Positions 2,372 to 61,693 of a DNA stretch of 64,000 nucleotides are shown one piece after another. The notes under the pieces were generated by a model. The model was not told the origin of the DNA and did not search any database. It saw only the letters and a program-made list of their open reading frames with translations. A program made the translations under genes and the position numbers. Within the stretch, counting starts at the first letter, position 1. Every line of letters starts with the position of its first letter. The DNA comes from an uncultured Candidatus Saccharibacteria bacterium (GTDB lineage Bacteria > Patescibacteriota > Saccharimonadia > Saccharimonadales > CAYZZS01): contig CAYZZS010000001.1 of assembly GCA_964483035.1 (NCBI GenBank), positions 6,979 through 70,978 on the forward strand. The letters run 5' to 3'.

Positions 2372-2410
2372 ACACCTAGCATACAACAGATGATATACTT
2401 CGTACTAACT

Positions 2411-3445
2411 ATGGAATATGCCAATCAGAAAATCGCAGAAACTGCAGATCTGCTCAAGCGCCGGCTTGAAGAATCTGACGACAAGAGGTCCATACTTCGC
2501 GCAGTCGAGCTCAAGGCTTTGTATGCGGAGATTCCGCTACTGCCGCCCGAGCAGCGAGCTACGTTCGGTAAGGAGATTAATGCACTTCGACAGGATCTGG
2601 AGCGGCTTGTTGAGGCGCACAAAGAGCAGGCTGAGGCTCTGCCGCCGATCGACGTGACAGCACCGTTTGATGTGAACGTGCCTGTAGATATGAAGCCGCG
2701 AACCCTGACGGCGGAGACGGGCAGTATCCATCCGCTTATGAGCGAGCTGGCAGTCATCGCCGACATCTATCAGCGCATGGGTTTTATGGTTGAAGCTTCG
2801 CGTGAGATTGACGATGACTATCATATGTTTGAGAGCCTAAACTTTCCCGAAGGGCATCCTGCCCGCGACGATTACGACACTTTCATGACCGAAGAAGGCC
2901 TGATTGCGCCGGCCCATACCAGTACTATGCAGAACCGAGTGCTTAAAAAATATCAGGGCAATCTGGAGCGGGGCGAGCCAATCGCTGTTGTTATTCCCGG
3001 GCGCGTATTTCGGAATGAAGATTTGGATGCCACGCATGAGCATACCTTTTATCAAATAGAGGGCGTCTATGTTGATCGGGGTGTCACTGTCGGTAACCTG
3101 ATAGCCACACTTGGCGCGTTCATGAACGAATACTTTGGCCAGGAGCTGGAGACCAAGCTGCAGCCATTCTATTTTCCGTTTACCGAGCCAAGCTTCGAAT
3201 TTGCGATTGAACGGCCCGAGATGCTTCGTAAGGATGACAGTGAGGAGCAGAAGTGGCTGGAGCTGCTCGGATGCGGCATGATTCATCCGAATGTACTCAA
3301 AATGGCAGGTATTGATCCGAGTGTTTACACCGGGTTCGCCTGGGGCGGTGGTATCGAGCGGCTGGTCATGATGAAGCACAATATAGAAGACATCCGCCAT
3401 TTTGAATCGGCAAACCTTAAGTTCCTGAGGCAGTTTACGAGATGA
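2411..3445 (+). CDS. pheS: Phenylalanine--tRNA ligase alpha subunit
   Basis: Class II aaRS core (HPARD, FRNE, GCGMIHPNVL, GFAWGGGIERL). The alternative start at 2390 would place the TATACT box (2394-2399) inside the CDS. The stop overlaps the pheT start (ATGA). Confidence 0.93.
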   Translation: MEYANQKIAETADLLKRRLEESDDKRSILRAVELKALYAEIPLLPPEQRATFGKEINALRQDLERLVEAHKEQAEALPPIDVTAPFDVNVPVDMKPRTLTAETGSIHPLMSELAVIADIYQRMGFMVEASREIDDDYHMFESLNFPEGHPARDDYDTFMTEEGLIAPAHTSTMQNRVLKKYQGNLERGEPIAVVIPGRVFRNEDLDATHEHTFYQIEGVYVDRGVTVGNLIATLGAFMNEYFGQELETKLQPFYFPFTEPSFEFAIERPEMLRKDDSEEQKWLELLGCGMIHPNVLKMAGIDPSVYTGFAWGGGIERLVMMKHNIEDIRHFESANLKFLRQFTR

Positions 3446-5979
3446 AAGTAAGTATTAACCTGGCGCAAGAATACGCCAACGTCGATATCAAAAGTATTCC
3501 AAGAGACGAGCTGCTTCGTCGTATTGGCGCGCAATTGGGCGCGGTTGAGGATGTCACTGAATGGGCGGCAAAGTTTGAGGGTGCTGTTATCGTCCGGATT
3601 GTTTCGTGCGAAAAGCATCCGGACGCGGACAAGCTAAGCGTGTGTCGTATTGATGATGGCGGCATGAATCAATCAGTAGATCGCGGCGAAGACGGCCTGA
3701 TCCAGGTTGTTTGCGGAGCCCCAAATGCGCGGACTGATATGTTTGCAATCTGGCTGAGTCCTGGCGTGATCGTGCCAAGTACACGGGACACTGATCCATT
3801 CGTGCTCGAAGCCCGTGAGATCCGCGGTGTAATGAGCAGTGGCATGCTCGCGAGTGCCTCAGAGTTAGGCATTAGTGATGATCACGCTGGCATCGTGGAA
3901 GTTACGGCTGAGGACGCCGGTAAAGAGCCGGCTCCGGGTGAGCCGCTGACATCATATTTCGGTTTGGATGATTTTGTAGTTGATTGTGAGAATAAGATGT
4001 TCACCCATCGCCCGGATTGCTTTGGGGTATTGGGTGTGGCGCGTGAGCTGGCAGGTATTAGCGGCCTTGCGTTTGAGAGTCCGGATTGGTATCTGCGAAC
4101 ACCTCAGTTCGAGGACAAAAACGATCTGCAAATCACGGTGAAAAACGATATACCAGAGTTCGTGCCGCGTTTTATGGCGGTGGCAATGCAAGGTGTCACG
4201 GTCAAGCCAAGTCCCATGTGGCTCCAGGCGGCATTGACACGGGTAGGGATCAAGCCGGTCAACAACGTAGTTGATGCCACGAACTATGTCATGCATTTGA
4301 CTGGCCAGCCGCTGCACGCTTTTGATTATGACAAGATCAAAGAGCGATCCGAGGCACCCGGCATCTTCCCCCGGATGAGCAAGAAGGGCGAGAAGATCAA
4401 GTTGCTCGGAGGCAAGGAAATAGAGCTAACCGGAGAGGAAATAGTCATTAGTACTGACAAGCAGGCGGTAGCTCTGGCGGGTGTCATGGGCGGCATCGAT
4501 ACTGAGGTTGATATGAATACCAAGAATATTATTATCGAATGCGCAACGTTCGATATGTACAGCATCCGCCGCACCAGCATGCGCTACGGGCTGTTTACTG
4601 ATGCGGTCACTCGCTATACCAAAGGTCAGAGTCCGCTACAAAATGATCGTGTCCTAGTATTTGCCATGCAAAAGATGGCTGAACTGACTGGGGCTCGACA
4701 GGTATCGAAAGTACACGATTTCCAAGATACAGGTGTGGGCGCAAAGGAGGGGGTTGAGGTAGCTGCAGAGTTTATAAATTCCCGTCTCGGCACTGAGTTG
4801 TCCAGCTCTGAGATTGCGACGATATTGCAGAATGTTGAGTTCGATGTTGAGGTTGCTACCTCTGGAGAGTTAAGAATTGTGCCGCCGTTCTGGAGAATGG
4901 ATATTAAGATTCCTGAGGATATAGTAGAGGAGATTGGGCGGCTGTATGGCTATGACAAGCTACCGGTAGCGCTACCAAGGCGTACTGCTAAGCCAGCACC
5001 AAAGAACGAACTACTTGAATTCAAGCAGCAGCTACGACTTGCGCTCAAGCAAGCTGGGGCGAATGAAGTGTTGACCTATAGCTTTGTGCACGGGAACCTG
5101 CTGGACAAGGTTGGTCAGGACAAGAGCGATGCTTATCGTCTTAGTAACGCACTAAGCCCTGATCTGCAGTACTATCGCCTCAGTCTGCTTCCTAGTCTGC
5201 TGGACAAAGTGCATGCCAATATCAAAGCCGGTTATGATGAGTTCGGTATATTTGAATTAAACCCGGTTCATGCGAAAAACCATGTCGATGAGGAAGACGG
5301 GTTACCGAGAGAGGTGCAGCGGCTGGCGTTTGTATTTGCTGCCAGCGACAAGATGGTGTCAGCAGGATATGCGGGAGCACCGTACTATCATGCTCGTAAA
5401 TACTTGACCGGACTGTTGGCGGACTTGGGGATTATTGCTTCATTTGAGCCGCTGGCTTCGCAGGAGCCGGAGACGGTAGTCAGTAAAGCAGTGGTTGCGC
5501 CATTTGAGGCCGGAAGAGCGGCATATGTCAAATCGCAAAACGGCACTCTGCTTGGTGTGCTCGGAGAGTTTAGGTCCGGAGTGCGCAGCAGTCTGAAGCT
5601 GCCATCATATATTGCTGGGTTTGAGCTAGATACAGAGCAGGTCATGCATGAGGCTAGCAAGCAGTCAGAATATGTGCCGTTGCCGAGGTTTCCAAAAGTT
5701 AGCCAGGATATCTCTTTGAAGGTGCCGGCGGATTTGCCATACGCTACGCTATTCGATGCCATATGGCAGGCACTTGGAGAGCTGCAGCCTGATAGTACGC
5801 TTCCTATGCTTGGCCCGATTGACATCTATCAGGGAGCGGATGACCCGTCTCACAAGCACGTGACCTTCCGCTTTACTATCACCTCGTACGAGCGGACCTT
5901 GACCACCGAGGAGGTGGCAGTCATGCTCGACAGGGCCGCGGAGCGATTACGCACAGAGCTGAGTGCGGAGCGTATATAA
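3442..5979 (+). CDS. pheT: Phenylalanine--tRNA ligase beta subunit
   Basis: 845-aa bacterial-type PheT with an N-terminal tRNA-binding domain, B3/4, B5 and a C-terminal anticodon-binding-like domain. It is translationally coupled to pheS. Confidence 0.93.
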   Translation: MKVSINLAQEYANVDIKSIPRDELLRRIGAQLGAVEDVTEWAAKFEGAVIVRIVSCEKHPDADKLSVCRIDDGGMNQSVDRGEDGLIQVVCGAPNARTDMFAIWLSPGVIVPSTRDTDPFVLEAREIRGVMSSGMLASASELGISDDHAGIVEVTAEDAGKEPAPGEPLTSYFGLDDFVVDCENKMFTHRPDCFGVLGVARELAGISGLAFESPDWYLRTPQFEDKNDLQITVKNDIPEFVPRFMAVAMQGVTVKPSPMWLQAALTRVGIKPVNNVVDATNYVMHLTGQPLHAFDYDKIKERSEAPGIFPRMSKKGEKIKLLGGKEIELTGEEIVISTDKQAVALAGVMGGIDTEVDMNTKNIIIECATFDMYSIRRTSMRYGLFTDAVTRYTKGQSPLQNDRVLVFAMQKMAELTGARQVSKVHDFQDTGVGAKEGVEVAAEFINSRLGTELSSSEIATILQNVEFDVEVATSGELRIVPPFWRMDIKIPEDIVEEIGRLYGYDKLPVALPRRTAKPAPKNELLEFKQQLRLALKQAGANEVLTYSFVHGNLLDKVGQDKSDAYRLSNALSPDLQYYRLSLLPSLLDKVHANIKAGYDEFGIFELNPVHAKNHVDEEDGLPREVQRLAFVFAASDKMVSAGYAGAPYYHARKYLTGLLADLGIIASFEPLASQEPETVVSKAVVAPFEAGRAAYVKSQNGTLLGVLGEFRSGVRSSLKLPSYIAGFELDTEQVMHEASKQSEYVPLPRFPKVSQDISLKVPADLPYATLFDAIWQALGELQPDSTLPMLGPIDIYQGADDPSHKHVTFRFTITSYERTLTTEEVAVMLDRAAERLRTELSAERI

Positions 5980-6017
5980 TAGAATCACACTGTATCATTC
6001 GCAGCGCAAGGGAGGGA

Positions 6018-6560
6018 GTGATGGTAGAGAGGTCACGAATGCACAAGCCGGAGCGCAGCTTCTATTTCAAGGTAGCATTGCAAGCAGCACTTTTCTTTAG
6101 TGATCTTGATGAGAGGACGGTTCCCAAGGGGTCTCGCCCGAGGCCGGAGCGGCAGCAGCTGAGCGAGAGATCGGTGACTGAGAAGCGACATACGATAGCG
6201 GAATTCCTGGCTACTCTCCACCCTTCATTGCCATACGTTGCCGTCGAGCTATTGAAGCCGGATGTTAACATGCACGATAAAAAGGACTTAACTCCAGTCT
6301 ATCTTGGTGAGCCGGCAAGGGGCTACTTCCAGGATCCGTTCAACGAGCCTACGCCAGGCGCTATGTCTGGAGCGGTCTCGATCCTGGCTGCCGGGCTAAA
6401 TAGGTTCGTGGTAGCGGATGTTGAGGGCAGGGCGCTGTGGGCCGGCCCTCAGGATAACCCGCAACAGACGTTTGAGCGTTATAGTCTCGGCAGCCTGTTG
6501 ACGGTTACGGAGTCCCGAGAATATGTACACTGGCTTCAGCGGCATGGCGTCGATGTATGA
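6018..6560 (+). CDS. Hypothetical protein
   Basis: 180-aa ORF preceded by AAGGGAGGGAG. The GTG at 6018 or the ATG at 6021 could be the start. No recognisable motif. Confidence 0.4.
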   Translation: MMVERSRMHKPERSFYFKVALQAALFFSDLDERTVPKGSRPRPERQQLSERSVTEKRHTIAEFLATLHPSLPYVAVELLKPDVNMHDKKDLTPVYLGEPARGYFQDPFNEPTPGAMSGAVSILAAGLNRFVVADVEGRALWAGPQDNPQQTFERYSLGSLLTVTESREYVHWLQRHGVDV

Positions 6561-6747
6561 ATATTGACAAAAACAGCAACGCATGTACTATAAATTTACT
6601 TGGCTGACATCTAAATATTGGCCAATGTATTTTGACAGGTAATGGGAAAGTAATATTAAGTAATCGGGACATCGACTCCATAGGCAGTTTTGTTTGGTTG
6701 ACATTGCCAGCCAGACATAACTGTCTATGTTACTAGACAATCGTCCT

Positions 6748-6931
6748 GGACGTGTAGCTCAGTGGTGTATTGCCCTGCAGGATTAAATACCCTGCGCGAG
6801 AATAGCGAGAGGCTTTACGGCCAAAACCTATCTTGAAAGTGGTAAATCAGAGCATCCAAAGTCAGAACTCAGCAGCCGCGTAACGTCTGACGCTAATTGG
6901 AAGGTCATGGGTTCGATTCCCATCACGTCCG
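6748..6931 (+). tRNA. Atypical 184-nt tRNA-like element (isotype undetermined; an intervening-sequence-containing tRNA, a tRNA-derived ncRNA or a pseudogene)
   Basis: A perfect 7-bp acceptor stem pairs GGACGTG (6748-54) with CACGTCC (6924-30), with discriminator G and no encoded CCA. The D-stem halves are GCTC (6757-60) and GAGC (6850-53). The T-arm is ATGGG-TTCGATT-CCCAT (6907-23) and the variable loop is AGGTC. The anticodon stem pairs TCCAA (6855-59) with TTGGA (6897-6901). The D-loop carries a ~77-82-nt insert flanked by direct AGTGGT repeats, and the anticodon loop is replaced by a 6-bp hairpin (GTCAGA/TCTGAC) with a 19-nt loop. Confidence 0.45.
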
Positions 6932-6932
6932 C

Positions 6933-7270
6933 TTCTGGGGAGCGAGCGCTATTATGGGCTCACGCCTATCGGTGCTCGGCACGAATGCGAAGGGATCGAC
7001 CGCAACTCGTAGCCTCGGCTTCCTGCCAGTGTGGCATGCCGGCTCCCCTTCTTCGCGCAAGCACTTTCCGCTTGCCACATTCGGCTCCTGCGTACCCAGC
7101 GGATTGATGCATCACCCTCCTTGAATCATTCTGCAGAGGTACGCAGGAGCCATCCGGCTCACCGATAAGCATTCTGTTTACCGCCGCCAACTTCACTTAA
7201 CTTAAATCACCTATTACCTGTCACATCTCCCGGTGCCTGTGAATTTCGCAGTCAGCGGGAGATGTTTTTT
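6933..7270 (+). ncRNA. Unclassified structured RNA candidate ending in an intrinsic terminator
   Basis: Perfect helices: 6937-43/7042-48 (GGGGAGC/GCTCCCC), 7024-28/7032-36, 7057-62/7070-75 and a 13-bp helix at 7083-95/7139-51. A long-range 8-bp pairing 6967-74/7160-67 crosses the first helix, so a pseudoknot is possible. ORFs in both strands look non-coding. A terminator lies at the 3' end. Confidence 0.45.
7223..7270 (+). terminator. Intrinsic terminator
   Basis: A 10-bp stem pairs ACATCTCCCG (7223-32) with CGGGAGATGT (7256-65), followed by TTTTTT. Confidence 0.7.
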
Positions 7271-7331
7271 GATTATTTAAGTGATGCAGGTTGTGTATCG
7301 CACGCCGGCAAATGTACAATGATTTGAGTTT

Positions 7332-9110
7332 ATGAGATATATCTGGAGAATTATTACTTTTACCGGCAATCTGTGGCCGTATTATGTGGCTATATCTGTT
7401 TTTACGGTACTGCTGGCTGCCATGAGTCAGTTAACACCGCTACTTACTAAGGGAGCGGTCGATGAGATTGGCAGGCTTGCCGGCGGAGGCGAGGCGAATG
7501 TGCGGCTTGTCGCCTTGCTGGCGGTGTTGATATTTGCAGCTGATGCTGGTCAGACCATATTCAGTAATATATCCGGCTATTTGGGCGATATGCTGATGAT
7601 CAAGCTGAAGCGTCAGCTGAGCGAGCGGTATTATGAACATCTGCTTAGTTTGCCGCAGCGGTATTTTGACAAAGAGCTATCTGGGAAGATTATTAACCGC
7701 ATGAGTCGGGGTATTCAGCAGATCGGTGACTTTACACAGATGGTGAGCAACAACTTCCTGCAGTTTATTGTCAGTACGGTATTTTCACTAATTATCGTCG
7801 CATATTATTCATGGCAGGTGGCGGTAATGCTTGGTTTGCTGTATCCGATTTTCATGTGGATGACAGCAAAGACCAGCAACAAATGGCAGCGATATCAGAA
7901 GACAATCAATGAGGCGCTGGACATCGCCAGCGGTCGGTTCGCCGAAAGCATCGGTCAGGTCAAGGTCGTTAAGAGCTTTATCCAGGAAGATCGAGAGCTA
8001 CGATTTTTCCGCAAGCATATCAGTAAGGCGGTGAATACAACCCGCCCGCAAAGCCGATACTGGCACAGGCAAGATATTGCTCGGCGGCTGGTGTTGAATA
8101 TTATATTTTTCGCGGTGTTTGCCTATATCTTCATCGAAACGGCGCGAGGCAACTATACCATCGGTGAAATGATTCTACTGATCCAATATGCGATGTTGAT
8201 TCGCATCCCCATCTTCAGTATTAGCTTCCTGATAGATCGCACTCAGCGGGCGATTGCTGACAGTAAGGATTACTTTGAGGTTATGGATGAGGCGGTGGAG
8301 GCTTCGGATGATGAGCGGGCCAAGGAACTGCAGGTGAAGCGGGGTGAGATCCAGTTTGATTCGGTTTCGTTCTCATATGACAAGGTGCCGGTGCTCAGTG
8401 ATATTTCCTTTACGATCAAGCCGGATACTAAAGTAGCACTGGTCGGTGAGAGCGGCGAGGGTAAAACAACGTTGACGAATCTGCTCATGAGGCTGTATGA
8501 GCCGGACGCTGGCCGAATAATAATTGATGGCCAGGATGTAAACGATGTTACCCAGCGCTCATTAAGGAGGCAGATTGGCGTGGTATTCCAGGACCCAGCG
8601 CTGTTTAGTGGCACAATCAAGGAGAATATCAGCTATGCTCGGCCGGGAGCGAGCGAGGCGGAGATAATTTCAGCCGCAAAAGCTGCCAATGCCCATGAAT
8701 TCATTGAAAAGCTTGAGAAAGGATATGATACCGAAATTGGCGAGCGGGGATTGAAGCTTTCAGGGGGTCAAAAACAGCGAATCGCAATTGCCAGGGCACT
8801 ACTCAAGGATGCCCCGATACTTATACTGGACGAAGCCACCAGTAGTCTTGATAGCAAGAGCGAGGCTATGGTTCAGGAGGCCTTGCAGCGGCTCATGAAG
8901 GGCCGTACGACGATTATTATCGCCCACCGTCTTAGTACGATCCAGAATGTGGATTTGATTGTGACGCTGAAGAGCGGTAGGGTTAATGAGCTTGGTCCGC
9001 CCAAACAGCTGGCAAAAAGCGGTGGCATCTATGCTCAGCTTCTCAGACTGCAGCGCGGCACAACAGAAGCGACCAAGAAGAAGTTACGTGAGTTTGAGAT
9101 TGCCACGTAG
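7332..9110 (+). CDS. ABC transporter, fused permease/ATP-binding protein (exporter type, MsbA/MdlB-like)
   Basis: Six-TM N-terminal half, then Walker A GESGEGKT, signature LSGGQKQR and Walker B ILILDEATS. Confidence 0.9.
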   Translation: MRYIWRIITFTGNLWPYYVAISVFTVLLAAMSQLTPLLTKGAVDEIGRLAGGGEANVRLVALLAVLIFAADAGQTIFSNISGYLGDMLMIKLKRQLSERYYEHLLSLPQRYFDKELSGKIINRMSRGIQQIGDFTQMVSNNFLQFIVSTVFSLIIVAYYSWQVAVMLGLLYPIFMWMTAKTSNKWQRYQKTINEALDIASGRFAESIGQVKVVKSFIQEDRELRFFRKHISKAVNTTRPQSRYWHRQDIARRLVLNIIFFAVFAYIFIETARGNYTIGEMILLIQYAMLIRIPIFSISFLIDRTQRAIADSKDYFEVMDEAVEASDDERAKELQVKRGEIQFDSVSFSYDKVPVLSDISFTIKPDTKVALVGESGEGKTTLTNLLMRLYEPDAGRIIIDGQDVNDVTQRSLRRQIGVVFQDPALFSGTIKENISYARPGASEAEIISAAKAANAHEFIEKLEKGYDTEIGERGLKLSGGQKQRIAIARALLKDAPILILDEATSSLDSKSEAMVQEALQRLMKGRTTIIIAHRLSTIQNVDLIVTLKSGRVNELGPPKQLAKSGGIYAQLLRLQRGTTEATKKKLREFEIAT

Positions 9111-9182: not shown

Positions 9183-12044
9183 ATGCCGAAGCCGAATTCT
9201 ACAGCGGAGAGAAATAAGCGATACGGCATGCTTGTTCGGCTGACCACTCTATTTTTCAATCGGCCACGCATAACTGCGCTGCTCTGGCTAGCGCTGATGG
9301 TATTCGGGATATTTAGCTACACGACACTTTTAAAGCGCGAGGGTTTCCCTGATGTTCAAATTCCGATCTCTGTTGTAACGGGAGTCTATCCGGTAAATGA
9401 CCCGGCCCGGGTAGACGCAGAGGCAGCCAGGCATGTCGTTGGTGCGGCACTTGCTATGGATTCGGTAAGTGCAGTCAAATCATCCAGTTCAGGTAATTTC
9501 TTTACGGTATCAATCCAGTTCAAAGGGGGAACTGATGCCGAGGCTGCAACTTCCGCCCTAGAGCAGGAGGTGCGTGACCAGGGGTTGGTTCCACCGAATG
9601 CTTTGATGCAATACAATGTGCCGTACTTTGGTGCGACCGGTGGAGATATTGAGCCGATAGACATTGCCGTGTCGCTGTACCGAGAGGGGCAGGTTGAGAC
9701 AGACATCACGGCCCTAACTGCTAAAGCAGAAGAGGCAGCGGAGTGGTTGCGCAGCCAGAATCTAAGCCAGGTGGATCAAGTGTTTGTCAAAAGCCCGTTT
9801 GAGCAGACGATTGGACCGGACGGCCAACTGGCAGTCATCCAGCGATCATTTGATAGGTTCGGAGAGCGTGAGAATGGCAGAACCGCGTTTCACCCGTCAG
9901 TCATTATCGGCCTGAGTATGAAGGCTGATGCTGATATTCTGAAGCTGGATAAAGAGGTGGAGGATGCACTCCATGTGTTAGCTGTTCAACCGCAGTTCGA
10001 GGGGTATGAAGCGCAGATAAGCGCCAGTTTTGCGCCGTCGATAGAAGAGAATATCAGCGAACTGCAGCGCGTATTGCTTGAGGGGTTGCTGGCAGTGCTG
10101 GTTGTCGGCTCATTGGTCATTGCTGTACGGGCCTCTATTATTACCGTCATTTCCATGGTGACAGTGCTCTTCATCAGCTTGGCCTTCCTCTATGTTATTG
10201 GATATACGCTCAACGTCATTACGCTGTTTGCACTCATTTTAAGTCTGGCACTAATTGTTGACGATACCATCATTATGGTAGAGGCAATCGATGCTGCTAG
10301 GCGCCGAGGTACAAGCCGCCTAGCAATCGTCAAAGACGCCACTAGCAGAATAAGTCGGGCGATGGTGGCCGCTACCTTAACAGCAGCGCTTAGCTTTGCA
10401 CCGCTGTTGTTTGTCGGTGGTATTCTGGGCAGCTTTATTCGGGCCATTCCCATCACCATTATCGCATCGCTTCTGATCAGTTTGCTGGTGGCGCTGGTGT
10501 TTATTCCGTTCTTTTCGCGCGTCATATTACTACGGAAGCTTGATGTAAAGCGACAGTCTGCAGGCGGTATGGCGCGACTGGAGGATGGTCTGGCCTCATT
10601 TATCACTTGGCCAATGCGCAAGGTGCGCAATGCTCCGCGCAGGCTGTTTGCCGTGTGGCTAGTGACGGCAGTGATCGGTGTAGGGTTCGTGCTTGGCGGG
10701 TTGGCAATCGGCCGGAATGTGATCTTTAACATCTTTCCTCCCTCTAAAGATACCAACGGCCTGGTTGTCAGGCTGAATTTTCCGCAGGGTACGGATTTAC
10801 AGGAAGCGGCTGCCATCTCAGAGAAAGCCGATGCGATCATCTCGGCCGCTGTCGGCGAGAACTTTTCAAAGGCATCCTACTATGCGACCGGTTCGGCGCA
10901 ATCGGCAACTGTTCAGATACAGCTCACGCCATACACCGAACGTGAAGTGACATCACCGGAGCTGGTGCGGCAGCTGCAAGAGCGTTTCAATGCAGACTTT
11001 CCTGAAGCTCGAGCTGCCGTTGGGCAATTGGATGTAGGTCCGCCAACTTCGGACTTTACGGTTCTAATCACGGCTGATGATCGGGAGGCTGCGTATCGAG
11101 CCGCTAATGATATTGCTGATTTTATGCGAGTGACTCGCTTAGAGCGACTTAACGGAACGGCCGCACAATTTGTCAATGTGTCAGTATCGAGCGCTGATGA
11201 ATTTCTGCGGGTCGGTAACCGACCTGTCGTACAGGTAACTGGTGGCTTCGATGGCGACGATATTTCCACTCTGGTCTCACTTGCAGAAACGGCTGTCAAT
11301 GAGCGGTTTGACGAAGCCACACTAGGTCAGTACGGTCTATCGGCAGATGCGGTCACGTTTGATATCGGTCAAGAATCGGAAAACCAAGAGTCGTTTAATT
11401 CGCTCTTGTTGGCATTTCCTGCCATGCTTGTAGTGATGTATCTTCTGCTGGCGTTCCAGTTCCGTTCGCTACTGCAGCCGCTGTTGATCTTCCTGGCAAT
11501 CCCCTTTAGCCTGTTCGGGATTATGCTTGGTCTTGATGTGACGAACAATGCTATTAGTTTCTTTGCTATGCTTGGATTTTTCGCTCTGGTTGGCCTCAGC
11601 ATTAAGAACACTATACTACTTACCGATTATGCGAATCAGGCCCGCCATAGGGGCGAGTCGGCAGTTGATGCTTCGGTTGATGCGCTTCGGGAGCGATTCC
11701 GTCCGCTGTTTGCTACCAGCTTAACCGCTGTAGTCTCGCTTATTCCGCTGGCAATCGCCAGTCCGTTCTGGGAGGGTTTGGCGGTAGTGCTGATCTTTGG
11801 GCTGTTATCCAGCACCTTCCTGGTAGTGACCGTGTTTCCATACTATTATCTGGGCGCCGAATATTTACGCGGCAGATTTGGGCGTCTACAGACCATTGTC
11901 TGGCTGATCGTGCTTGTTGGCGGTACTGTTATATTGGGAATCACCGGGAATGCAGAGTATATTCCGGTAATTATATTGGCATGCCTGCTCGTCTTTCCGG
12001 TGCATTGGACACTCAGAAAAATCGTAGCCGGAATAATATCGTAA
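9183..12044 (+). CDS. RND superfamily efflux permease (AcrB/AcrD/AcrF-like)
   Basis: 953-aa protein with two 6-TM bundles separated by large extracytoplasmic loops. The N-terminus (FFNRPRITALLWLALMVFGIFSY) is typical of RND pumps. Confidence 0.8.
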   Translation: MPKPNSTAERNKRYGMLVRLTTLFFNRPRITALLWLALMVFGIFSYTTLLKREGFPDVQIPISVVTGVYPVNDPARVDAEAARHVVGAALAMDSVSAVKSSSSGNFFTVSIQFKGGTDAEAATSALEQEVRDQGLVPPNALMQYNVPYFGATGGDIEPIDIAVSLYREGQVETDITALTAKAEEAAEWLRSQNLSQVDQVFVKSPFEQTIGPDGQLAVIQRSFDRFGERENGRTAFHPSVIIGLSMKADADILKLDKEVEDALHVLAVQPQFEGYEAQISASFAPSIEENISELQRVLLEGLLAVLVVGSLVIAVRASIITVISMVTVLFISLAFLYVIGYTLNVITLFALILSLALIVDDTIIMVEAIDAARRRGTSRLAIVKDATSRISRAMVAATLTAALSFAPLLFVGGILGSFIRAIPITIIASLLISLLVALVFIPFFSRVILLRKLDVKRQSAGGMARLEDGLASFITWPMRKVRNAPRRLFAVWLVTAVIGVGFVLGGLAIGRNVIFNIFPPSKDTNGLVVRLNFPQGTDLQEAAAISEKADAIISAAVGENFSKASYYATGSAQSATVQIQLTPYTEREVTSPELVRQLQERFNADFPEARAAVGQLDVGPPTSDFTVLITADDREAAYRAANDIADFMRVTRLERLNGTAAQFVNVSVSSADEFLRVGNRPVVQVTGGFDGDDISTLVSLAETAVNERFDEATLGQYGLSADAVTFDIGQESENQESFNSLLLAFPAMLVVMYLLLAFQFRSLLQPLLIFLAIPFSLFGIMLGLDVTNNAISFFAMLGFFALVGLSIKNTILLTDYANQARHRGESAVDASVDALRERFRPLFATSLTAVVSLIPLAIASPFWEGLAVVLIFGLLSSTFLVVTVFPYYYLGAEYLRGRFGRLQTIVWLIVLVGGTVILGITGNAEYIPVIILACLLVFPVHWTLRKIVAGIIS

Positions 12045-61608: not shown

Positions 61609-61693
61609 GGGGATGTGGTGGAATTGGTAGACACGCATGCCTTAGGAGCATGTACCGCAAGGTGTGAAGGTTCAAGTCCTTTCATCCCCACCA
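61609..61693 (+). tRNA. tRNA-Leu (anticodon UAG), CCA encoded
   Basis: GGGGATG/CATCCCC acceptor stem, anticodon arm CATGC-CTTAGGA-GCATG, 13-nt variable arm, T-arm GAAGG-TTCAAGT-CCTTT, A73 and CCA. Confidence 0.92.

What the first reader, a model, noticed from the sequence alone, without database searches (positions are those of the whole stretch)
6748..6931. tRNA-like element with an interrupted D-loop and a hairpin in place of the anticodon loop
All four tRNA arms can be drawn with perfect pairing.
- Acceptor stem GGACGTG/CACGTCC.
- D-stem GCTC...GAGC.
- Anticodon stem TCCAA/TTGGA.
- Variable loop AGGTC and T-arm ATGGG-TTCGATT-CCCAT, with discriminator G.
Two things break the normal tRNA plan.
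- The D-loop (AGTGGT...) is split by ~77-82 nt, flanked by an exact direct repeat AGTGGT (6761-66 and 6838-43).
- The 7-nt anticodon loop is replaced by A + GTCAGA-[19 nt]-TCTGAC + GCTAA, with no U33-NNN-R37 arrangement that I can find.
Bacterial tRNA introns known to me are group I introns of about 200 nt or more in the anticodon loop. Two short insertions, one of them in the D-loop, do not fit that. The options are a tRNA needing unusual processing, a tRNA-mimic ncRNA, or a decayed gene. Decay would be surprising given the flawless stems.
Basis: seen in the sequence. Interest (0 to 1): 0.6.

Follow-up and report, generated by a model that had tools for sequence, protein, structure and literature searches.

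The report
Interrupted, non-decoding tRNA-like gene
A Saccharibacteria (CPR) genome carries a tRNA-shaped gene with a complete tRNA core, but large insertions in the D-loop and anticodon loop mean it cannot decode, and it occurs in only one species, so it is a curiosity of unproven function.

Summary
Window 6748-6931 (+) matches the Rfam tRNA model end to end (41.7 bits, cut-off 29). All 21 stem pairs are perfect and the tertiary-contact bases are all present. An 82-83-nt insertion sits at D-loop position 20/21, and a 37-nt segment replaces the 7-nt anticodon loop.

It is not a spliceable tRNA:
- No single excision gives a 7-nt loop with U33.
- Neither insert has BHB junctions.
- There is no group I or II signal.
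- CCA is not encoded, unlike the tRNA-Leu in the same window.

The host is a Candidatus Saccharibacteria bacterium. The element lies in a 1.35-kb segment (orphan ORF, element, 344-nt highly structured RNA) between pheT and an ABC transporter gene. That segment is absent from the same site in all ten relatives examined. It occurs only in about 99.5%-identical strains from eight sequencing runs. No homologue turned up in JGI metagenomes or IMG/VR.

Best reading: a young, species-restricted, tRNA-derived gene that no longer decodes. It is probably still transcribed and cut like a tRNA. Whether it has a selected function is unresolved. Interest is moderate to low.

The parts
6748..6931 (+). The tRNA-like element as a whole: acceptor stem, D-arm, anticodon arm, variable loop, T-arm and discriminator G6931. 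No CCA is encoded.
   Evidence: Rfam RF00005 at 41.7 bits over the full model. The cloverleaf is the minimum-energy fold. The sequence is identical or differs by one SNP in eight strain contigs.
6767..6848 (+). D-loop insertion of 82 nt at tRNA position 20/21. Its 3' part repeats AGTGGT (6838-6843), matching D-loop bases 6761-6766.
   Evidence: Read from the sequence; Rfam places an 83-nt insert here. The fold of the insert region is not more stable than shuffles (z -0.98). The only strain SNP in the element (6833 T>C) lies here and breaks a predicted pair.
6860..6896 (+). A 37-nt segment in place of the 7-nt anticodon loop: A, a 6-bp hairpin (6861-6866 / 6886-6891) with a 19-nt loop, then GCTAA. 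The last three bases, UAA, equal positions 36-38 of tRNAs that read ANN codons.
   Evidence: Read from the sequence. Hairpin probability 0.94. No excision gives U33.
6704..6739 (+). Promoter-like site TTGCCA-16 nt-TATGTT (6704-6731), ending 17 nt before the element. It is overlapped by the palindrome TGTCTA-N6-TAGACA (6722-6739).
   Evidence: Consensus scan, 9 of 12 matches. The palindrome was read from the sequence. A stronger site (10 of 12) lies at 6564-6591. Function is inferred, not shown.
6932..7275 (+). Highly structured noncoding stretch directly downstream. It contains a four-way junction (6937-7050), a 14-bp perfect hairpin (7083-7096 / 7138-7151) and a terminator-like hairpin (7223-7265) followed by a T-run.
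   Evidence: Minimum free energy -145 kcal/mol, z -7.55; the minus strand gives z -3.1. It is the top outlier of 185 tiles across the window. Repeats; terminator. No Rfam family matches.
6021..6560 (+). Orphan ORF (179-180 aa) immediately upstream, in the same lineage-specific segment.
   Evidence: The only hit among 5.8 billion proteins is from its own species. No Pfam, NCBIfam, PHROGs or PADLOC family matches. Strain SNPs are 6 synonymous and 6 nonsynonymous. AlphaFold2 pLDDT is 40.
5980..7331 (+). The whole lineage-specific segment between pheT and the ABC transporter gene.
   Evidence: nhmmer, blastn and tblastn find no similarity in the syntenic loci of relatives. Different genes occupy this slot in each relative. 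No flanking direct repeats.

Best explanation
This is a young, species-restricted gene derived from a tRNA, and it can no longer act as a decoder. It keeps the acceptor/T-arm helix, the D-stem, the anticodon stem and every base needed for the L-shaped elbow. It has 82 extra bases at D-loop position 20/21, and a 37-nt segment containing a hairpin replaces the anticodon loop.

I infer the following, none of it shown. The element is still transcribed from the promoter-like site just upstream, as the first part of a roughly 530-nt transcript that continues into the structured RNA at 6932-7275. RNase P cuts at its 5' end. An RNase Z-type cut after G6931 fits the absence of encoded CCA. The CCA-adding enzyme would then act on the product. 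The result would be a 184-nt L-shaped RNA with two extra arms that takes no part in decoding.

For translation it is a pseudogene. I lean towards it being a by-product of the recent insertion that created the 1.35-kb segment, rather than a tuned tRNA mimic.
For: Derived from a tRNA:
- Full-length Rfam tRNA match at 41.7 bits.
- 21 of 21 stem pairs are perfect.
- U8, A14, G15/C48, G18 G19, A21, G46, T54 T55 C56 and A58 are all present.

Cannot decode:
- No 7-nt loop with U33 can be made by any single excision.
- ARAGORN misses it in default mode and gives only a contrived parse in intron mode.

Not spliced by a known route:
- No BHB at the insert boundaries.
- No group I or II hit at E <= 10.
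- The inserts are 82 and about 30 nt, whereas the Patescibacteria tRNA introns whose sequences I saw in PMC13011429's supplement are 235 and 574 nt.

Differs from a working tRNA gene of the same genome:
- tRNA-Leu at 61609-61693 encodes CCA and has its own terminator. The element has neither.

Young and lineage-specific:
- Present only in about 99.5%-identical strains.
- The whole 5980-7331 segment is missing from the syntenic loci of ten relatives, including one with 81% ABC transporter identity.
- The neighbouring ORF is an orphan.
- A JGI metagenome scan and three IMG/VR scans found no homologue.

Insertion scar:
- An exact 6-nt repeat AGTGGT flanks 71 nt of the D-loop insert.

Inserts not obviously structured:
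- z -0.98, and the SNP at 6833 breaks a predicted pair.

Likely transcription unit:
- A promoter-like site ends 17 nt upstream, and the first terminator-like site is at 7244-7275.
Against: - Both insertions fall in the few places where a tRNA tolerates extra RNA without losing stems or tertiary contacts. By my rough estimate about 14 of 76 positions qualify, which gives about 0.03 for two random hits. That favours selection for the fold.
- If the AGTGGT repeat marks a single insertion, the D-loop before it was already 12 nt long. That suggests more than one event without any stem damage.
- The 771-nt intergenic region carries 5 strain SNPs against 13.2 expected from synonymous sites of the flanking genes (Poisson P 0.01, Fisher P 0.05). 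This hints that something here is under constraint. The element alone (1 SNP against 3.1 expected) is not significant.
- CPR genomes are compact and seldom keep junk (my own knowledge).
- Transcription and processing are inferred only. In thermodynamic folds of longer precursors the acceptor stem probability falls to 0.04-0.27.
Confidence: 0.55

Rival explanations
1. A selected tRNA mimic. The L-shaped core serves as a handle for tRNA-binding proteins such as RNase P, RNase Z, the CCA-adding enzyme, TruB, or possibly a synthetase or a tRNA-targeting toxin. The two added arms carry the real function, for example as a decoy, a tether, or a processing and stability module for the downstream structured RNA.
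For: - All stems and tertiary bases are intact, and both insertions sit at structurally permissive sites.
- The extension hairpin is stable (probability 0.94).
- SNP density in the intergenic region is lower than at synonymous sites.
- An exceptionally structured RNA follows directly, up to a terminator.
- There are precedents for non-decoding tRNA-like RNAs in bacteria: YrlA (PMC4201824) and tmRNA.
Against: - Seen in a single species, with no homologue anywhere that could be searched.
- No covariation data are available.
- The D-loop insert fold is not better than chance, and its only SNP breaks a predicted pair.
- No partner protein is evident: the neighbouring ORF is an orphan with no recognisable fold.
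- The fresh-looking 6-nt repeat suggests a recent accident.
Confidence: 0.25
2. Part of a long cis-acting leader of the efflux operon (ABC transporter 7332-9110 and RND pump 9183-12044). Transcription would start upstream of the element. The tRNA-shaped fold and the 6937-7050 junction would act together with the terminator at 7223-7275 as an attenuator or riboswitch-like control.
For: - The only terminator-like site lies 57 nt before the ABC start codon.
- A palindrome that could be an operator overlaps the -10-like hexamer.
- The four-way junction and hairpins have riboswitch-like compactness.
Against: - Relatives run the same ABC gene with short upstream regions of 29-186 nt and no such leader.
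- No riboswitch or T-box family matches even at E <= 10.
- I know of no precedent for a full cloverleaf inside a leader.
- One strain SNP (7257) weakens the terminator stem.
Confidence: 0.1
3. A genuine tRNA with two unconventional introns, removed by an unknown CPR-specific pathway.
For: - The tRNA core is perfect.
- Patescibacteria are known for tRNA genes that standard tools miss because of introns (PMC13011429).
- The 3' end of the anticodon segment reads UAA, as at positions 36-38 of ANN decoders.
Against: - No excision gives U33 with a 7-nt loop.
- There is no BHB at the insert boundaries.
- There is no group I or II core.
- The inserts are far too short to be self-splicing.
- No CCA is encoded, unlike tRNA-Leu.
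- The element is not conserved in relatives.
- A JGI metagenome scan found no bacterial tRNA sharing this anticodon stem, variable loop and T-loop; its only two hits were unrelated tRNA-Ala calls.
Confidence: 0.05

Closest known systems
Patescibacteria tRNA genes interrupted by group I introns (tRNA-Asn and tRNA-Asp, position 35/36; Nakagawa et al. 2026, PMC13011429)
   Same: - Same phylum.
- The tRNA gene is invisible to default annotation tools.
- The interruption is in the anticodon loop just 5' of a UAA.
- The D-arm sequence GTAGCTCAGTGGTAGAGC matches the Saccharimonadia tRNA-Asn in the paper's supplement.
   Different: - The insert here is about 30 nt, against 235 and 574 nt for the two intron sequences seen in that supplement. 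It has no group I core, and joining the flanks does not restore an anticodon loop.
- There is a second insertion, in the D-loop.
- The acceptor, anticodon and T stems differ from that tRNA-Asn.
- CCA is not encoded.
Archaeal multi-intron tRNAs with introns at non-canonical sites, including the D-loop (my own knowledge)
   Same: Two short interruptions, one in the D-loop near position 20/21 and one in the anticodon loop.
   Different: - There is no bulge-helix-bulge motif at either boundary.
- The host is a bacterium with a bacterial-type PheRS.
- The spliced product would not be a valid tRNA.
YrlA / bacterial Y RNAs (Chen et al. 2014, PMC4201824)
   Same: A non-decoding bacterial RNA with tRNA-like D-arm, T-arm and acceptor helix. 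M. smegmatis YrlA is cut by RNase P and receives CCA.
   Different: [quoted passage not shown] From my own knowledge, not from the passages read, the RNA ends form the Ro-binding stem at the anticodon-arm position. Here the topology is that of a normal tRNA.
- There is no Rfam YrlA hit.
- No Ro/Rsr (TROVE) gene was seen among the 30 window ORFs scanned.
tmRNA
   Same: A tRNA-like acceptor/T-arm domain with a large non-tRNA insertion and no anticodon.
   Different: - The third acceptor pair is A3-U70 rather than G3-U70, and the discriminator is G.
- A full D-stem and anticodon stem are present.
- There are no pseudoknots and no tag reading frame with a resume codon.
- ARAGORN calls no tmRNA, and the Rfam permuted-tmRNA score is only 11.8 bits against a cut-off of 47.
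tRNA pseudogenes and tRNA-derived relics
   Same: Clear tRNA ancestry, loss of the anticodon loop, a lineage-specific location in a variable genomic slot, and a repeat-flanked insertion.
   Different: - There is no point damage at all in 21 stem pairs or in the tertiary bases.
- Both lesions are large insertions confined to loops.
- The host genome is highly streamlined.
tRNA-like processing signals (mascRNA at the MALAT1 3' end; bacterial tRNA-mRNA co-transcripts such as thrU-tyrU-glyT-thrT-tufB; my own knowledge)
   Same: A tRNA-shaped unit embedded in a longer transcript, whose RNase P and RNase Z cuts define the ends of the neighbouring RNA.
   Different: - Processing has not been shown here.
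- The element lies at the 5' end, not the 3' end, of its presumed partner.
- It carries two large extra arms.

Membership tests
Canonical tRNA (Rfam RF00005) | Cloverleaf with 7-bp acceptor stem, 4-bp D-stem, 5-bp anticodon stem and 5-bp T-stem, scoring above the family threshold | tested here: met
   41.7 bits against a gathering score of 29, model positions 1-71. All 21 pairs are Watson-Crick.
Canonical tRNA (Rfam RF00005) | Conserved tertiary-contact bases: U8, A14, R15/Y48, G18 G19, A21, G46, T54 T55 C56, A58 | tested here: met
   All are present when the sequence is read against standard numbering.
Canonical tRNA (Rfam RF00005) | 7-nt anticodon loop with U33 and a purine at position 37 | tested here: not met
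   The loop is 37 nt. All eight 5'/3' joins giving 7 nt have C or G at position 33.
Canonical tRNA (Rfam RF00005) | D-loop of about 7-11 nt | tested here: not met
   There are 89 nt between the D-stem strands, and 12 nt even if one AGTGGT repeat unit is removed.
tRNA with group I intron (as in Patescibacteria, PMC13011429) | A group I core in the anticodon loop; the 5' exon ends in U and the intron ends in G; splicing restores a valid anticodon loop | tested here: not met
   No Intron_gpI hit at E <= 10. The insert is about 30 nt. The U...G join gives AGUCUAA, with G33.
Archaeal-type tRNA intron | Bulge-helix-bulge motif at both exon-intron junctions | tested here: not met
   Six relaxed BHB hits against 4.4 +/- 2.6 in shuffles, none at the insert boundaries.
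Archaeal-type tRNA intron | Splicing endonuclease (EndA) and RtcB-type ligase encoded in the genome | not testable with these tools
   Only 64 kb of the genome is available. Neither was seen among the 30 ORFs scanned.
tmRNA | G3-U70 alanine identity pair, a tag reading frame and pseudoknots | tested here: not met
   The pair is A3-U70. ARAGORN finds no tmRNA. tmRNA_permuted scores 11.8 bits against 47.
YrlA / Y RNA | [quoted passage not shown] | tested here: not met
   The topology here is that of a normal tRNA. No Rfam YrlA hit. No TROVE protein among the ORFs scanned.
tRNA pseudogene / relic | tRNA ancestry combined with loss of decoding capacity | tested here: met
tRNA pseudogene / relic | Neutral evolution and/or no expression | tested here: inconclusive
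   The element has 1 strain SNP against 3.1 expected (P 0.18). The whole intergenic region has 5 against 13.2 expected (P 0.01). No expression data are available.

The most novel reading that the evidence does not exclude
The element is a functional member of an undescribed class of bacterial tRNA mimics: a normally oriented tRNA core with an expansion arm at D-loop position 20/21 and a doubled anticodon arm. It would be released by RNase P and RNase Z from a transcript that also yields a 344-nt highly structured RNA. It might serve as a decoy or tether for tRNA-binding enzymes or toxins in an episymbiotic CPR bacterium. Alternatively, it could be a tRNA matured by a splicing route not yet known in bacteria.
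Probability: 0.12. Interest if true: 0.7.

Novelty: new variant of a known kind. Interest (0 to 1): 0.35.

Why it matters
If it is only a young relic, it matters mainly for annotation. It shows that tRNA-derived genes with large loop insertions are missed by ARAGORN and by Rfam's default filters. It also shows that the pheT-ABC slot in Saccharibacteria is a hot spot where new DNA arrives.

If the fold is under selection, it would be a rare bacterial case of a non-decoding, normally oriented tRNA scaffold carrying extra arms, in a phylum already known for odd tRNA and rRNA gene structures. The adjoining 344-nt RNA, the most strongly structured stretch of the window, would then be a candidate new noncoding RNA.

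Tried and rejected
- Synteny. PheT-based loci (L001-L007) and ABC transporter-based loci (L009-L012) keep the gene order but have no tRNA or tRNA-like element. This holds for ARAGORN, blastn, my own scan for a T-arm plus 7-bp acceptor, and nhmmer, blastn and tblastn with the whole segment.
- Public annotated collections. There is no match in E. coli genomes, plasmids or phages.
- Pattern scans.
  - An IMG/VR scan with the 3' half found nothing.
  - A loose double-gap pattern hit only tandem phage tRNA arrays and was dropped as non-specific.
  - A tighter double-insert pattern found nothing.
  - The single JGI metagenome scan was designed to catch both a canonical parent (7-nt loop) and the long-loop form. 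It returned only two unrelated tRNA-Ala calls and not even the element itself, so the species is not in that collection.
- Finding relatives through spurious ORFs called over the noncoding region. The 51-aa ORF hit only itself. The 76-aa ORF gave two junk hits at E about 5e-4.
- The orphan ORF. It has no family in Pfam, NCBIfam, PHROGs or PADLOC, no PDB relative, and an AlphaFold2 pLDDT of 40, so no fold search was made.
- tmRNA idea. The loop contains GCA GCC GCG TAA, which reads Ala-Ala-Ala-stop. I rejected this because the pair is A3-U70, there are no pseudoknots, and ARAGORN and Rfam find no tmRNA.
- Mobile-element ends. No direct repeats flank the 1.35-kb segment, and no second copy of any part of it exists in the window.
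- Pairing between the element's loops and the downstream RNA. The best match is an 8-mer, which is nothing notable.
- A look-up of the window's own orphan protein, meant to identify the source record, returned nothing.

Full report

Yes.
- acceptor stem GGACGTG 6748-6754 / CACGTCC 6924-6930
- D-stem GCTC 6757-6760 / GAGC 6850-6853
- anticodon stem TCCAA 6855-6859 / TTGGA 6897-6901
- variable loop AGGTC 6902-6906
- T-arm ATGGG-TTCGATT-CCCAT 6907-6923
- discriminator G6931
- AGTGGT at 6761-6766 and again at 6838-6843
- hairpin GTCAGA / TCTGAC at 6861-6891

ARAGORN in default mode and Rfam with its standard filters both miss the element. With permissive filters, the Rfam tRNA model aligns over its full length at 41.7 bits, against a gathering score of 29. 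The E-value is 2.4e-7 in the local search and 1.9e-5 for the whole window. The alignment has insertions of 83 nt in the D-loop and 37 nt in the anticodon loop.

In standard numbering the D-loop insertion lies between U20 and A21. The bases U8, A14, G15/C48, G18 G19, A21, G46, T54 T55 C56 and A58 are all present.

Folded alone, the 184-nt RNA takes the cloverleaf as its minimum-energy structure. Helix probabilities are between 0.55 and 0.98.

The sequence recurs in eight contigs assembled independently from eight sequencing runs, so it is not an assembly artefact.

**2. Whose genome is it, and what surrounds the element?**

The neighbouring genes are, in order:
- a family 63-like glycoside hydrolase
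- YajQ
- pheS (2390-3445)
- pheT (3442-5979)
- an ORF of 180 aa (6018-6560)
- the element
- an ABC transporter (7332-9110)
- an RND pump (9183-12044)
- NUDIX, FKBP and thioredoxin reductase genes

The rest of the window holds core genes: uvrB, gatA, gatB, dnaE, nusA, clpC-like, radA, a class A PBP and tyrS.

The closest PheT and ABC transporter relatives all come from Candidatus Saccharibacteria / Saccharimonadales MAGs. The host is therefore a CPR bacterium. The window is 50% G+C.

**3. Is it conserved?**

No, not beyond one species.

Ten syntenic loci from relatives keep the order GH-YajQ-pheS-pheT-[slot]-ABC-NUDIX-FKBP-Grx-TrxB. These include the closest one, with 81% ABC transporter identity. 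The slot between pheT and the ABC gene differs in each:
- a sugar transferase gene in L009
- DUF2207 plus NUDIX in L010
- a 186-nt spacer in L012
- three other genes in L004

None of the loci contains a tRNA or anything like the element. nhmmer, blastn and tblastn with the whole 5980-7331 segment find nothing in them.

The 180-aa ORF is an orphan. Its only hit among 5.8 billion proteins is from its own species.

One JGI metagenome scan and three IMG/VR scans produced no homologue. The JGI set does not contain the species at all. The E. coli, plasmid and phage collections have no match.

**4. What do the strains say?**

Eight strain contigs are 98.8-99.9% identical to the window over the aligned stretch.

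| Region | SNPs |
|---|---|
| pheT | 10 synonymous, 2 nonsynonymous |
| ABC transporter | 7 synonymous, 1 nonsynonymous |
| orphan ORF | 6 synonymous, 6 nonsynonymous, at three times the synonymous density of the flanks |
| 771-nt intergenic region | 5 in total |

The five intergenic SNPs fall as follows:
- 6613, upstream of the element
- 6833, in the D-loop insert, breaking a predicted pair
- 7109 and 7119, in a hairpin loop
- 7257, breaking a terminator pair

Against the synonymous-site density of the flanking genes (1.7%), the intergenic region has 5 SNPs where 13.2 are expected (Poisson P 0.01, Fisher P 0.05). The element alone has 1 against 3.1 expected (P 0.18). So there is a weak hint that something in the intergenic region is constrained, but nothing specific to the tRNA-like fold.

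**5. Can it be a spliceable tRNA?**

I tested this in four ways.
1. Joining x bases from the 5' side and 7-x bases from the 3' side of the 37-nt segment gives ACGCUAA, AGGCUAA, AGUCUAA, AGUCAAA or AGUCAGA. None has U33.
2. A scan for bulge-helix-bulge motifs finds six relaxed hits against 4.4 +/- 2.6 in shuffles. None lies at an insert boundary.
3. Rfam gives no group I or group II signal even at E <= 10. The inserts are 82 and about 30 nt. The Patescibacteria tRNA introns described recently are group I introns in the anticodon loop, mostly at position 35/36. The two whose sequences I saw in the paper's supplement are 235 and 574 nt (PMC13011429).
4. ARAGORN in intron mode returns only a contrived tRNA-Ala with an 88-nt intron, a mismatched D-stem and a mismatched anticodon stem.

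In addition, the bona fide tRNA-Leu of this window encodes CCA and has its own terminator. The element is followed by CTT and has no terminator for 330 nt.

One detail may point to ancestry. The last three bases of the anticodon segment, UAA, are those of positions 36-38 in ANN-decoding tRNAs. The D-arm also equals that of a Saccharimonadia tRNA-Asn in the paper's supplement. The other stems differ, and I could not find a parent gene.

**6. What lies downstream?**

The 344 nt from 6932 to 7275 fold at -145 kcal/mol. Shuffles give -104.9 +/- 5.3, so z is -7.55, and the centroid structure equals the minimum-energy structure. The opposite strand gives z -3.1.

Among 185 tiles of the window this is by far the strongest outlier (mean -0.5, sd 1.2, next best -3.9).

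The stretch comprises:
- a four-way junction (6937-7050)
- a small hairpin
- a 14-bp perfect hairpin (7083-7096 / 7138-7151)
- a terminator-like hairpin with a T-run (7223-7275)

No Rfam family matches it. Promoter-like sites lie at 6564-6591 (10 of 12 matches) and 6704-6731 (9 of 12 matches). The second ends 17 nt before the element and overlaps the palindrome TGTCTA-N6-TAGACA (read).

The simplest transcription unit is therefore promoter, then tRNA-like element, then structured RNA, then terminator. This is an inference; there are no expression data.

**7. How does it most likely work?**

*Shown:*
- The element derives from a tRNA.
- It has an intact L-shape core and no usable anticodon loop.
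- It has no known intron signature.
- It is restricted to one species and sits inside a lineage-specific 1.35-kb segment in a variable slot.

*Inferred:*
- It is still transcribed.
- Because the acceptor/T-arm helix and elbow are intact, RNase P cuts it at 6747/6748.
- An RNase Z-type enzyme cuts after G6931, which is the usual route for precursors that lack encoded CCA.
- CCA is then added.
- This gives a 184-nt RNA that cannot decode, and it frees the downstream RNA.

I judge a young relic somewhat more likely than a tuned mimic, for these reasons:
- occurrence in a single species
- the undecayed 6-nt repeat around the D-loop insert
- the lack of a significant fold in that insert (z -0.98)
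- the SNP that breaks a predicted pair in it

The counter-arguments are real. Both insertions fall in the few sites a tRNA tolerates, which I estimate at roughly 0.03 by chance. All 21 stem pairs are intact. The intergenic SNP density is low. The genome is streamlined.

**8. Comparison with known systems.**

- *Patescibacteria group I intron tRNAs.* It resembles them in phylum, in being invisible to default tools and in the site of interruption. It fails their defining features.
- *Archaeal multi-intron tRNAs.* It resembles them in where the inserts sit, but lacks BHB motifs.
- *YrlA and tmRNA.* Like them it is a non-decoding tRNA-like RNA. Its topology differs from YrlA, and it lacks the identity pair and tag of tmRNA.
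- *tRNA pseudogene.* It fits the broad notion, except that it has no point damage at all.

I file it as a new variant of a known kind: a tRNA-derived, tRNA-like element.

**9. Verdict.**

A spliced tRNA is unlikely (about 0.05). A non-decoding tRNA-derived relic that is probably still processed is most likely (about 0.55). A selected mimic (about 0.25) and part of an efflux-operon leader (about 0.10) remain open.

Interest is 0.35. The element is truly odd and sits in an interesting phylum, but it is confined to one species and has no evidence of function. The adjoining structured RNA may be the more promising lead.

Noticed in passing
window 6932-7275 (+): A 344-nt noncoding stretch folds at -145 kcal/mol (z -7.55), by far the strongest structural outlier among 185 tiles of the window. 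It contains a four-way junction, a 14-bp perfect hairpin and a terminator. It has no Rfam family and no relatives were found. It is a candidate new structured RNA or leader of the ABC/RND efflux operon.
   Followed up: partly
window 6021-6560 (+): An orphan ORF of 179-180 aa with no homologue outside its own species among 5.8 billion proteins. Its synonymous diversity is three times that of the flanking genes, and strain SNPs are 6 synonymous to 6 nonsynonymous. AlphaFold2 gives pLDDT 40. The tile 6244-6587 is the second strongest RNA-fold outlier (z -3.9).
   Followed up: partly
window 5980-7331, compared with L004, L006, L009, L010 and L012: The slot between pheT and the ABC transporter gene is a hot spot. 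Every Saccharibacteria relative examined carries different content there, ranging from nothing to a sugar transferase, DUF2207 plus NUDIX, or three other genes. The flanking genes stay syntenic.
   Followed up: yes
window 6722-6739 and 6557-6704: A perfect palindrome TGTCTA-N6-TAGACA overlaps the -10-like hexamer just upstream of the element, which looks like an operator. Three spaced copies of a TTGACA-containing motif (direct repeats at 6557/6625 and 6595/6689) lie further upstream.
   Followed up: no
window 9183-12044: An RND (AcrB-like) transporter gene follows the ABC transporter here, and ORFs of matching size follow it in L004 and L006. The gene is absent from that position in the closer relatives L009, L010 and L012.
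   Followed up: no
window 61609-61693 (+): A normal tRNA-Leu(TAG) with encoded CCA and its own terminator. I used it as the in-genome reference for what a working tRNA gene looks like.
   Followed up: yes
L010 5291-7699: In this relative, pheT is called as a truncated 483-aa product that lacks the N-terminal tRNA-binding domain, with a 118-aa ORF on the opposite strand in the gap after pheS. This may be a frameshift, an assembly problem or an interrupted gene.
   Followed up: no
L031 2059-2132 and L032 1410-1483: The only JGI metagenome sequences sharing the element's anticodon stem, variable loop and T-loop pattern are two tRNA-Ala(GGC) calls from one sample (Ga0126336). They are unrelated to the element.
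   Followed up: partly
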